A stretch of 64,000 nucleotides of DNA from Candidatus Babelota bacterium (lineage in GTDB: Bacteria > Babelota > Babeliae > Babelales > Vermiphilaceae): NCBI GenBank assembly GCA_013286935.1, contig JABDES010000001.1:66499-130498 (forward strand). Direction: 5' to 3'. This document shows, piece after piece, positions 13,160-16,352 of the stretch; position 1 is the stretch's first letter; each line of letters starts with the position of its first letter. The position numbers are program-made.

Positions 13160-16100
13160 AGCCAGCGGTGGAAACATTGTACCGGTTCAAATCCGGTTCC
13201 CGGCACCAGCCTTCGCTTTCAGCTACGGCTGGCACGCCATTTTTTTCAAAGGAATGATTTGATTTGGTTAAAGGATGTTGGTAGTACCAAGCGAGGGCTG
13301 CCCGCCATAGCCGTAGGCGACGGCTGGGCTGGAATACCGTGTGTTTGACCTTCTTCGCTAAAGCTTCGTATGGCGAGCCATTTTTTCAAAGGAATAATAT
13401 GATTTGGTTAAAGGACATTGGTAGCACCCAGCGAAGTATGCCCTTCGAAGCTCGAAGAGCGTAGTAGGAGCTGCCAGCCATAGCCGTAGGCGACGGCTGG
13501 GTCTGACTATAGACTTCTGATTTTGTTGTATTGTAAGATTGGCAAAATTGTTAACCCCCAAATCCTGTGGAGACGCTGTATGAAATATCTAATTTGTTTT
13601 ACGCGTGTATTGGTTTTAACAACATGTTTGATGTTGCCAACGACTGGCAAGGGAATGATCACACCAACCGTTATTATGTTGGCTCCGGTGGTTATCAAAG
13701 CTCTCGTTGATATTTTTACGCTCATACAGTCTCAGCCTGTTGTTCAGCAAGCTGAAAAGGATCTACTTGAAGATCTAAAACATGACAAAATAGTATGTTT
13801 TGCATTGATCAAACAGGCTTGCCATCATCTTGAATCCGAGAGTTCGGATGATGCTCATGTGCAGAAGACAAAACAGTCGGTAGCAACTTCCATTGCCCGT
13901 GTTAAAGTGCATGTTGAAAATGAACTGCAGCCGGGAAATACTGTTACAGCCGATTCAATAAGCAACCTTTCTAAGTTTATCAAAGAATCTTTATTGGAAT
14001 GTACGCAAAAAGTCAAAGTGCATCATTTTTGGTCAATGCCGACAACTCATGCGCCTGAAGCATTGCTCAAAAAGTATAAGGATAGTCCTGAACTCAAAGA
14101 ACCTATTGCGACATGCATTAAGCGACTTCAATCAATGGGCGATGTAAAGGCAGATATGGCCAAAGAGGTTGAGTATAATGTTTTGTATCATCACTTTGAT
14201 GATGCTTTAGGAAAAGTTAGTAAGTTGAATACATATGTTAGCCAACAGCAAAAGTTGGTAGAAGGGTCTTCTTTGAATGACGATGTCAAGGCAAAATTAA
14301 GTCTAATCATTCCTGCGCTTTTAAATAAGGTTTTGATTCCAATGGCATTGGCAGACGACATGGATGAGCGTTGGATGTGCGATCCGATTGCAGACATTGG
14401 TAACGGTTATGCCGGGCTGTTAGACGCTATACAAAAAGCGACGATCCATCGGCCTCAGTTGGCATAAAACAATTACTATGGATCAATTATGTTGTTTGAT
14501 TAAAATAGTTCAGCGATAAATTCGTTGATCTGTTTTGTAGTTACTGTTGGGGCCATTGCTTGATAAAATGTTTCATTGTATTCGCGCGTTTCTACAACGA
14601 CTGGCATTGTGACGGCGTGGCCCAACAGGAGTGCTTGTTTTTTGCTGTCAAGGCTTGCTAACACGCTTCGCAGGGCGGATGCATTGTTGCTGCCGGTCAG
14701 CACTGCCTGTATGTCACGCTCGTCATTGAGTTGTGCTATGACCTTTGTGCCAATTTGAGAGAGTATCTCCTGGTCTATGCAGGATGGGCGCTGGTCCACA
14801 ATTAAAAGAGATACGTAGTATTTGCGCATTTCTCTGGCTATGGTACCAAATATTGTTTGACGCGCTGCTTGTGGGTTTAAAAATTTATGCGCCTCCTCTA
14901 TCGTTATGAGAAGTTTAAACGGTTCTGAAAATCTATTTGAGTCACCTAAAAACTGTTCTGTTTTTCTGATGTATTCGTGGTGTATGCGTCGCGTAATAAT
15001 ATTTGCGACAATTAAATACACAAAAGTGGATGAATAGTTGCCGAATTCAATGACGATATTAATTCCCTTGTCAATGTATTCCATCATTTGATCTATGACT
15101 GAACTTTGTCCAATGGCTTGTTCTGGAAGATCGCTGAAAAATGGAAGTCGCTCAATGCGCTTGAGCTTACGATATAAAGCAGCTATTGATTCAGGGTGAG
15201 CGCCCAACTCTTGTGCAAACTCCTTTAAAACCTCTCCCTTGGATAAAAGGACGGCAAGCCAATTTTTTTTATATTTTGATTCAATTAAATAAGAAGCCTC
15301 TACAGCTGTCGCATGTAAATTAAGTTCGTCTTGCAGTGACAATATATCGTCCGGACTAATGACCTGGTATGAAAGAGATACGGCTACATCAGGCGTTCCT
15401 GCGCGGCGCCGTGTAGATTCAGGGTCTAACGAAAAAATAGCCACGCGATCTGAAAAAAGCGTCTTTAGGCCTTTTACAAATGCATTACCAGGGCCTTCCT
15501 TGCGTGCCTGTAACCCATATTCTGAGTGCATGTCAAATATTATATTTACTGCCTTTTGGCGATGTATGAGACCTGCAAGGATTAGCCTGGTTAAAAATGT
15601 TTTTCCTGTGCCCGTTTTTCCAAAGATACCGTTACTTCGCTCTGTGAGGCGGTCTAAATCGAGGCAGACGGGTGTGTCCATATCAAGCGGTTTTCCAATG
15701 CTAAAATATCGATTGCTCTTATCCTGTTCATCTCCAAATATAAGCGCTACATCGGATTGACTTGCCGGTAGAACGACTGAAAAATGTGCGGGTATTGTTT
15801 TGACCGGCACTGGCTTGTTGTCAGGACCAAGCATGAGCATTGGCCGTAAGACGGCTGAGGTGTAGATGTTATGTTCCTTAAGAACGCTTTCAAGAATAGT
15901 TTCTTGTGCGGTGAACGGATATTGCACAATCTCCTGGTTGGTAAACTCTAGCCTTAGGTCTGTAATAAGAGAGAAAAATTTATACGTTGTGCCTACTATG
16001 CATACAAATTTGCCTGTTTTTATCTGCTCTAATGACTCATCGGTTTTTATGCGCATTTGCAGGCCATCGCATAGCGAACCGCCCGTTATATATCCTATCT

Positions 16101-16352
16101 GTTTATTCATGTTCATCCATGAAGATCGTTATTTGATTACGGAGTATAGATACCATTGCGCGGCGGGAATGAACCGATTTTTGTATGCCATTATCAAGCA
16201 TAAAAGTAAATGGGTAATCGGGTAGTAGATTGATAATCATAGGTGCATGACCATTTTTGATGACAAATTCTCCGCTAGGTGTTTGTATTTCCAGCCAAAC
16301 TATTGTCTCCGTCTGCTTGTGCCGAGGGCTTAATATGACAAGCTCCATATTA

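What a model noticed while it worked through the whole genome (the two positions that open the first line are those of the whole stretch)
14500..16110. Archaeal-type HerA-NurA with Mre11/Rad50 is the core end-resection system of Babelota
HerA (g00068, directly after atpD-atpC), NurA (g00733), Mre11/SbcD (g00278), Rad50 (g00975) and a stand-alone HAS-barrel protein (g00504) are scattered core genes, while RecB/AddA-type nucleases are missing. I read this as an entire bacterial phylum resecting double-strand breaks with the archaeal HerA-NurA-Mre11-Rad50 set instead of RecBCD/AddAB. A mesophilic parasite phylum depending on this pathway would be new and offers small, tractable enzymes.
Evidence so far: HerA in 41 of 41 genomes at 55-72% identity; NurA in 41 of 41. 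The PDDEXK_1 (RecB/AddB nuclease) family is in 7 of 41, only as short stand-alone ORFs of <=455 aa. RecO_C 0 of 21 over the cut-off, RecR 20 of 21. SbcD is 57% and Rad50 34-39% identical to G018; Rad50 zinc hook and HAS-barrel hits. FtsK is present in 78 of 81, so HerA is not an FtsK stand-in.
(Added by a program. Inside this text positions count along the whole contig: contig position 66,499 is position 1 of the stretch shown here. "Call 12" and the like, gene names such as g00115 and contig names such as C1 are that model's own, and its searches are not shown. The text may have been shortened before it was handed on; [...] marks where a part breaks off. The agent that wrote the report below was given it as the finding of a first reader that could run no searches.)

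Follow-up and report, generated by a model that had tools for sequence, protein, structure and literature searches.

The report
Three-part bacterial NurA-HerA in Babelota
Nearly all sampled genomes of these protist-parasite bacteria carry a DNA motor (HerA), a nuclease (NurA) and a small barrel protein at three separate places, and two lineages lost all three together while keeping their other repair genes, so the trio is likely one dispensable, bacterial-type DNA-end-processing machine, not an archaeal system that the phylum depends on.

Summary
The inventory is mostly right, but the reading is not. HerA lies at 14500-16116 after atpD-atpC. Across Babelota, NurA is in 146 of 151 genomes, the stand-alone HAS-barrel protein in 149 of 151 and HerA in 53 of 55. 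No AddA/RecB-size helicase was found in 49 of 49, and RecQ in 0 of 151.

The set is not archaeal-type. HerA's nearest relatives (44-53% identity) are in Latescibacterota, Rhodothermota, Armatimonadota, Chloroflexota and Cyanobacteria, several as a nurA-HAS-herA operon. The 'Mre11/Rad50' score as bacterial SbcD/SbcC.

Two genomes of different families lost all three unlinked genes, yet keep RecA, RecJ, RecD2, UvrD and SbcCD. RecJ is in 148 of 151. The 'missing' RecO is probably a divergent family. Latescibacterota-group relatives hold the trio beside AddAB-like genes.

Best reading: a three-subunit NurA-HAS-HerA machine that works beside a RecJ-RecFOR route. A 2016 supplement already lists NurA as a TM6 core gene, and this scan found the three-gene module before on other DNA. 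The co-loss evidence is new here.

The parts
14500..16116 (-). herA, 538 aa HerA/FtsK-family ATPase of a bacterial subfamily. Its likely partners lie outside the window: nurA G000:C13:18741-19889 and the stand-alone HAS-barrel gene G000:C7:12506-13147
15931..16098 (-). N-terminal HAS-barrel match of HerA (residues 7-62); the stand-alone HAS protein aligns to about the first 133 residues of HerA
   Evidence: 24.5 bits, cut-off 25.2; profile-profile E 3.5e-5, probability 72%
15598..15621 (-). Walker A motif of HerA (residues 166-173)
   Evidence: intact
14887..14907 (-). Walker B motif (residues 404-410), followed by the RE.RK (428) and DQRP (441) motifs of the HerA clade
   Evidence: invariant or nearly invariant columns; motif names recalled
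16103..16348 (-). atpC (ATP synthase epsilon N-domain), overlapping the herA start; a conserved neighbour that stays when herA is lost
16350..17819 (-). atpD (ATP synthase beta), conserved upstream neighbour

Best explanation
HerA at 14500-16116, NurA and the stand-alone HAS-barrel protein are kept and lost together across Babelota and likely form one three-subunit machine that processes DNA ends beside, not instead of, a RecJ-RecFOR-RecA route. Shown: intact ATPase motifs in HerA, invariant NurA catalytic-type residues (D88, E153, D180, H341), joint loss of three unlinked genes in two families, a nurA-HAS-herA operon in related bacteria, and retention of RecJ, RecD2, UvrD, SbcCD and RecA where the trio is lost. 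Inferred from archaeal and Deinococcus work: a HerA hexamer pumps a double-stranded end into a NurA dimer, which trims it and opens blunt or blocked ends (broken forks, breaks) for RecJ. RecF, RecR and a divergent RecO would then load RecA. The HAS protein would act as a docking collar or adaptor between motor and nuclease. Without the trio, RecJ with UvrD or RecD2 and SbcCD would do enough.
For: Co-loss: the only 2 of 151 genomes without the HAS gene are the only 2 of 55 without HerA, and both are among the 5 of 151 without NurA. The other three NurA-negative genomes also gave no hit for its neighbour iscU, which points to assembly gaps, while G086 and G065 keep iscU. In both, atpD-atpC is followed by other genes, whereas G086's congeners G025 and G119 have herA there. 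Profile searches of all of G086's single 1.64-Mb contig find none of the three at E up to 1, and do find them in G000. G086 keeps RecA, RecJ, RecD2, UvrD, RecF, RecR, a RecO-like gene, SbcC and SbcD. Operon: NurA lies upstream of herA in 9 of 80 and HAS in 11 of 80 named loci. Folds: the HAS model matches HerA N-termini and the NurA model matches solved NurA. Precedent: in Deinococcus, RecJ is essential, UvrD matters and RecQ is dispensable (PMC2806897, abstract), and NurA-HerA adds little to radioresistance (PMC4663267 and PMC9960219, passages).
Against: No activity was measured for any member of this subfamily. Loss in two genomes does not prove a minor role, because main resectors such as RecBCD are also non-essential and are lost in reduced genomes (recalled). 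Retention in 97-99% of small genomes, with no RecQ, argues for an important job. In Deinococcus the RecD helicase is dispensable (PMC2806897, abstract), so RecD2 is a weak candidate partner for RecJ. The RecO call is a remote match (probability 2.6% against E. coli RecO; no PDB hit). G065 has 40 contigs and its rnhB-HAS site lies 258 bases from a contig end; G086 shows no end overlap proving closure. SbcD or SbcC lies beside herA in 2 non-Babelota loci of the 80.
Confidence: 0.55

Rival explanations
1. NurA-HAS-HerA is the principal initiator of double-strand-break resection in Babelota, helped by SbcCD as archaeal HerA-NurA is helped by Mre11-Rad50; the two lineages that lost it simply repair breaks poorly.
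For: No AddA/RecB-size helicase in 49 of 49, RecQ in 0 of 151, trio kept in 97-99%. SbcD lies one gene after herA in a Chloroflexota locus and SbcC is head-to-head with herA in a cyanobacterial locus. Oceanithermus has sbcDC after hepA, and Thermus hepA mutants are UV-sensitive (PMC5448004, abstract, section 3.1 and discussion).
Against: SbcCD does not share the trio's losses. The trio coexists with AddAB-like pairs in 6 of 6 Latescibacterota-group genomes. RecJ, RecD2, UvrD and RecA are kept at least as well. The one well-studied bacterial complex is a poor 5' resector (PMC9960219, passages).
Confidence: 0.22
2. The trio mainly handles incoming or outgoing DNA (uptake, transfer, or destruction of foreign linear DNA), not chromosome breaks.
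For: Thermus hepA mutants are defective in natural competence and DNA donation (PMC5448004, abstract and discussion). The window has type II secretion/type IV pilus genes (T2SSF at 8048-9244, T2SSE at 24172-25881) and G000 has a ComF-like gene under its cut-off. The HerA profile scores anti-phage HerA proteins (up to 125 bits) about as well as archaeal repair HerA (118-141 bits). A review states that bacterial NurA-HerA degrade viral DNA (PMC13748450, passage).
Against: The genes are single-copy and sit at fixed housekeeping sites (atpC, iscU, rnhB). No plasmid copy covers 80% of HerA among 72,556 records. The anti-phage NCBIfam models score under 90 bits against cut-offs of 800-850. G086 keeps its ComF-like gene after losing the trio.
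Confidence: 0.13
3. HerA chiefly modulates RecJ, with NurA as a competitor, as described in Deinococcus.
For: RecJ and the trio co-occur in nearly all genomes. Deinococcus HerA stimulates RecJ and NurA blocks this (PMC4663267, passages).
Against: That interaction needs an extra C-terminal domain of Deinococcus-Thermus RecJ. The four Babelota RecJ ORFs measured are 577-589 aa, with the TIGR00644 match running to near their ends. No Deinococcus-labelled HerA entry was hit by sequence or profile.
Confidence: 0.07

Closest known systems
Archaeal HerA-NurA with Mre11-Rad50 (S. solfataricus 4D2I, 2YGK; T. kodakarensis 9X1L)
   Same: HAS-barrel plus HerA ATPase core, NurA fold with both DG motifs and the AH motif; best fold matches of both models.
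   Different: Only 58-73 bits by sequence; archaeal NCBIfam models 78-89 bits against cut-offs of 800-970; genes scattered; SbcCD of bacterial type and not co-lost; a third HAS-only gene; lost in two genomes.
Deinococcus radiodurans NurA-HerA (7F6D; PMC9960219, PMC4663267) and Thermus HepA-NurA (PMC5448004)
   Same: A bacterial NurA-HerA in cells without RecBC that keep RecJ, RecFOR, UvrD and a stand-alone RecD; non-essential.
   Different: A different HerA branch (no Deinococcus-labelled HerA hit at E up to 0.01); Babelota lack RecQ and a long RecJ tail; no third subunit was mentioned in the passages read.
Bacterial nurA - stand-alone HAS - herA module (Chloroflexota, Latescibacterota, Armatimonadota; the same HerA family in Cyanobacteria and Rhodothermota)
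   Same: Same HerA family (44-53% identity to the query; tree), same NurA and HAS families.
   Different: Operon split to three housekeeping loci. Uncharacterised in the papers I could search; noted earlier by this scan. I recall stand-alone HAS barrels in Iyer et al. 2004 (PMC521647), which could not be read.
Bacterial RecFOR (RecJ) pathway without RecBCD/AddAB
   Same: RecA, RecF, RecR, RecJ, UvrD, RecD2 present; model cyanobacteria also lack recB, recC or recD (PMC5101192, passages); 88% of genomes have RecBCD, AddAB or AdnAB, so about 12% have none (PMC6452273, passage).
   Different: No RecQ found; RecO so diverged that Pfam and TIGRFAM cut-offs miss it.

Membership tests
HerA ATPase family | HAS barrel, DUF87 core, Walker A/B and the RE.RK and DQRP motifs | tested here: met
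   the HAS score is 0.7 bit under its cut-off in hmmscan and over it
NurA nuclease family | PF09376 over cut-off, two DG motifs and AH motif, NurA fold | tested here: met
   89 bits against 21; D88, E153, D180, H341 invariant in 20 sequences; fold match 2YGK E 5.7e-12; motifs as in PMC13748450 passage
Archaeal HerA-NurA-Mre11-Rad50 system | HerA passes an archaeal HerA model or has archaeal HerA as nearest kin | tested here: not met
   no canonical archaeal HerA could be put in the tree
Archaeal HerA-NurA-Mre11-Rad50 system | Mre11 and Rad50 of archaeal type | tested here: not met
   SbcD 154.7 against 76 bits or less; SbcC 225 against 74 bits or less
Archaeal HerA-NurA-Mre11-Rad50 system | Four genes linked and inherited together | tested here: not met
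   separate contigs in G000; SbcC and SbcD kept in G086 and G065
Archaeal HerA-NurA-Mre11-Rad50 system | ATP-dependent 5' resection giving 3' tails; needed for viability | not testable with these tools
   needs biochemistry; two genomes lack the genes
Bacterial nurA-HAS-herA module | All three families present and from the same HerA branch | tested here: met
Bacterial nurA-HAS-herA module | Physical three-way complex | not tested
   no complex prediction was obtained; inferred from operon order and co-loss
RecBCD / AddAB / AdnAB | UvrD-type helicase of about 1000 aa or more with a PD-(D/E)XK nuclease | tested here: not met
   positive control G155 gave a 1308-aa frame
RecO | RecO_N / RecO_C / TIGR00613 match over cut-off | tested here: inconclusive
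   RecO_N 0 of 45; TIGR00613 under cut-off; 17 of 62 family members hit RecO_C at E up to 0.1, best 3.1e-4, any other family 1 of 62; language-model neighbours mostly RecO clusters
Anti-phage HerA systems (Sir2-HerA, DUF4297-HerA) | Passes HerA_antiphage models, adjacent effector, mobile and patchy | tested here: not met

The most novel reading that the evidence does not exclude
Babelota, lacking RecBCD, AddAB and RecQ, start double-strand-break repair with a three-subunit NurA-HAS-HerA machine and hand the ends to RecJ and a RecFOR set with an unrecognised RecO. The same hybrid route would serve many cyanobacteria and other phyla without RecBC, making it a fourth bacterial resection system with an undescribed adaptor subunit.
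Probability: 0.22. Interest if true: 0.72.

Novelty: new variant of a known kind. Interest (0 to 1): 0.42.

Why it matters
Only two bacterial NurA proteins have been characterised (PMC13748450, passage), and both belong to other branches. The joint loss of three unlinked genes in two Babelota families is natural genetic evidence that the unnamed HAS-barrel protein works with NurA and HerA and that SbcCD is a separate unit. It names three small mesophilic proteins for reconstitution, and cyanobacterial or Chloroflexota relatives for knockouts. The likely divergent RecO closes an apparent gap in the phylum's repair inventory. The strong claim of a phylum on archaeal resection does not stand.

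Tried and rejected
1. Archaeal origin or type: rejected on scores and tree. One Hodarchaeota protein (P0178, 35% identity) falls outside the clade that holds Babelota. A maximum-likelihood tree did not finish, so the tree is FastTree with SH-like support and has no canonical archaeal HerA.
2. A hidden AddA in G072: it is a TM0106-family protein.
3. NurA loss in G101, G052 and G103: set aside as likely assembly gaps because the iscU query is missing too; not counted as losses.
4. RecO truly absent: rejected as unsafe. A zinc-finger pattern search in G000 and the family profile found no RecO there, but G000 is 82.7% complete and also gave no RecA, RecJ or RecF hit.
5. An SOS-type operator at the repressor beside rnhB-HAS: no shared palindrome in 11 upstream regions.
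6. The NurA profile finds no solved NurA by sequence; only the fold search does.
7. Complex prediction of NurA with the HAS protein was not available, so there is no verdict on binding.
8. Mobile defence system: no near-full-length plasmid copies.

Full report
Observation. The window holds a 538-aa ORF at 14500-16116 on the minus strand that overlaps the end of atpC and follows atpD. It has the DUF87 core (110 bits) and a borderline HAS barrel (24.5 bits, cut-off 25.2), with intact Walker A, Walker B, RE.RK and DQRP motifs. Named homologues are Babeliales/Dependentiae. In G000 the other genes lie on other contigs: NurA on C13 after an iscU-like gene, a 214-aa HAS-barrel protein on C7 after rnhB, SbcD on C3 and SbcC on C28. 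atpC lies within 1.5 kb of herA in 21 of 30 Babelota loci.

Phylum counts. In an even draw of 150 genomes plus G000, NurA matches in 146 of 151, the HAS protein in 149 of 151, RecJ in 148 of 151 with 143 over the cut-off, RecQ in 0 of 151 and PDDEXK_1 in 25 of 151. In panels chosen mostly for few contigs, HerA matches in 53 of 55 (all five NurA-negative genomes were included on purpose; three genomes have it in frameshifted pieces). RecA matches in 54 of 55, RecD2 over the cut-off in 45 of 45 and RecF over the cut-off in 5 of 5. Each of 49 Babelota genomes has one UvrD-family helicase in a frame of 668-852 aa, while the control G155 also shows a 1308-aa AddA-like frame. Most PDDEXK_1 frames are short. 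The longest (G072, 1259 aa) is a TM0106-family nuclease-helicase; frames of 578, 610 and 790 aa were not scanned. So RecBCD/AddAB was not found in those searched. G000 itself (82.7% complete) gave no RecA, RecJ or RecF hit, which I treat as gaps.

Not archaeal-type. Against solved structures HerA scores 72.8 bits (9x1l, the Thermococcus HerA) and 58.2 bits (4d2i, Sulfolobus). Archaeal NCBIfam models give 78-89 bits against cut-offs of 800-970. Full-length relatives outside Babelota score about 375-500 bits. The 80 best GTDB loci for an alignment of them come from Latescibacterota, Handelsmanbacteria, Rhodothermota, Armatimonadota, Chloroflexota, Cyanobacteria and Babelota at 44-53% identity to that query; the scan covered 7 of 64 parts and estimated about 5700 pattern-matching stretches. 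A FastTree of 123 proteins (12 of my 30 Babelota loci, 79 of the 80 named loci, 32 of the 150 representatives) puts Babelota in one clade (SH 100) inside this bacterial family, near Latescibacterota and Rhodothermota; Cyanobacteria also form one side of a branch. A Hodarchaeota protein lies outside. No canonical archaeal HerA was in the tree and it is unrooted, so the origin of the family is not settled. With a profile, archaeal repair HerA (118-141 bits) and anti-phage HerA (up to 125) are about equally far.

A three-gene unit. In the 80 named loci NurA lies upstream of herA in 9 and the HAS gene in 11, mostly as nurA-HAS-herA; SbcD or SbcC is a near neighbour in 2 non-Babelota loci. The HAS protein aligns to the first 133 residues of HerA. 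Its model (pLDDT 88) matches HerA N-termini and adds a helical tail. The NurA model matches solved NurA structures, and its acidic and histidine motif residues are invariant in 20 sequences. The only two genomes without the HAS gene, G086 (family f1, one contig) and G065 (family f8), are also the only two without HerA, and both lack NurA. By hand, the chance that both HAS-negative genomes fall among the 5 NurA-negative ones of 151 is 10 in 11325. The flanking genes remain: atpD-atpC and iscU in both, and G086's congeners have herA after atpC. Profiles of all three families find nothing at E up to 1 in the whole G086 contig and find their genes in G000. G065's congener G068 has the most diverged NurA and HAS (NurA 24% identical to G000 against 40-45% for three other genomes), which fits relaxed selection in that genus. 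Three more NurA-negative genomes also gave no iscU hit and keep HerA and HAS, so I count them as gaps. Caveats: G065 has 40 contigs and its HAS site is near a contig end; closure of G086 is not shown.

What remains without the trio. G086 keeps RecA, RecJ, RecD2, UvrD, RecF, RecR, SbcC and SbcD; G065 keeps RecA, RecJ, RecD2, UvrD, SbcC and SbcD, with RecF and RecR untested. Neither has a PDDEXK_1 match. RecO_N finds 0 of 45, but a weak TIGR00613 hit in G041 led to a family of 65 proteins. Of 62 aligned members, 17 hit RecO_C at E up to 0.1 and no other family hit more than one. Language-model neighbours carry RecO families in 25 of 30 hits for each of two members. The family is present in G041, G008 and G086. 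Against it: only E 0.018, probability 2.6%, against E. coli RecO, and no PDB hit. The core-gene supplement of PMC4776705 lists a family in 7 of 7 TM6 genomes with two members labelled RecO C-terminal, NurA in 7 of 7, RecJ in 7 of 7, RecF in 6 and RecD in 5, and no RecB; I did not check that its RecO row is my family.

Not a substitute for AddAB. Of 36 genomes behind the named loci, 30 have a PDDEXK_1 match. All six Latescibacterota-group genomes with the operon hold adjacent pairs of 1000-1300 aa frames, and the G155 pair matches AddA (354 bits) and AddB (99 bits) best, both under their cut-offs. Nine cyanobacterial genomes show no such frame over 870 aa and three Rhodothermota none at all (at E 1e-6, where the E. 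coli control did not ring), so mesophiles with this HerA and no AddAB are not confined to Babelota.

Mechanism. I commit to a NurA-HAS-HerA complex that trims DNA ends beside a RecJ-RecFOR-RecA route (0.55). The hexamer-dimer mechanism, the adaptor role of HAS and the hand-over to RecJ are inferred from other organisms; nothing was measured here and no complex was predicted. The main-resector reading stays open (0.22) because the trio is kept in 97-99% of small genomes that lack RecQ, and main resectors can be dispensable. Roles in DNA uptake or foreign-DNA destruction (0.13) and RecJ modulation (0.07) are weaker.

Literature. Seen: passages of PMC9960219, PMC13748450, PMC6452273, PMC4663267, PMC5101192, PMC12172432 and PMC6561590; abstract, section 3.1 and discussion of PMC5448004; abstract of PMC2806897; passages and supplement file 2 of PMC4776705 (file 1 was not searchable). 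PMC521647 could not be read; that it mentions stand-alone HAS barrels is recalled. Searches listed no paper that discusses HerA-NurA in Babelota or a third HAS subunit; subscription papers and bioRxiv supplements were not covered. This scan had reported the three-gene module on other genomes but nothing under Babelota terms.

Verdict. A real, conserved feature; a new variant of the known NurA-HerA kind. The new parts are the co-loss evidence and the corrected repair inventory. Interest 0.42.

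Noticed in passing
L104:4054-4740 (-) = G000:C7:11053-11739: A strongly conserved (about 70-89% identity) XRE helix-turn-helix protein with a weak LexA/S24-like C-terminal domain, head-to-head with rnhB-HAS and upstream of rpsF. All 11 upstream regions have TTGACA, most followed by TACAAT. It looks like a core, possibly non-cleavable regulator; no shared palindrome was found.
   Followed up: partly
L198:1300-1932 (-); L058:3849-4436 (+); L257:12147-12791 (+): Unannotated family of about 200-215 aa that is likely a divergent RecO; no zinc-finger motif is seen in the five members aligned.
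   Followed up: partly
G086 and G025 (genus g9); L252: No RNase HII (rnhB) hit in two genomes of this genus, although G119 has it; also none in the whole G086 contig.
   Followed up: no
window 9405-12104 (+); G000 C12:13008-21526 and C5:63942-65894: 899-aa MutS-domain-V/III protein with a signal-peptide-like start and no mismatch-binding domain hit; a tandem set of four similar P-loop proteins lies on C12.
   Followed up: no
window 5277-7775 (-): Three tandem near-copies of a secreted-looking protein of about 250 aa with assembly gaps (N runs) between repeats.
   Followed up: no
window 16103-17819 and 14500-16116: herA follows atpD-atpC in 21 of 30 genomes. The HAS barrel is named for HerA and ATP synthase, but atpD-atpC stay when herA is lost, so the link is probably only transcriptional.
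   Followed up: partly
L027 (G072:C5:4000-16000): GC-rich-looking island with a TM0106 nuclease-helicase and large ATPase genes that resemble a BREX-type defence locus (resemblance recalled; Pfam gave only a weak AAA hit).
   Followed up: partly
window 8048-9244, 23679-25881: Type II secretion / type IV pilus genes (T2SSF, T2SSE and a pilin-like ORF) near herA.
   Followed up: partly
L125, L126, L145, L146, L172: Records titled Pseudomonadota, Klebsiella, Singulisphaera or Janthinobacterium carry HerA that groups with Babelota, Chloroflexota or Armatimonadota, which suggests mislabelled bins.
   Followed up: no
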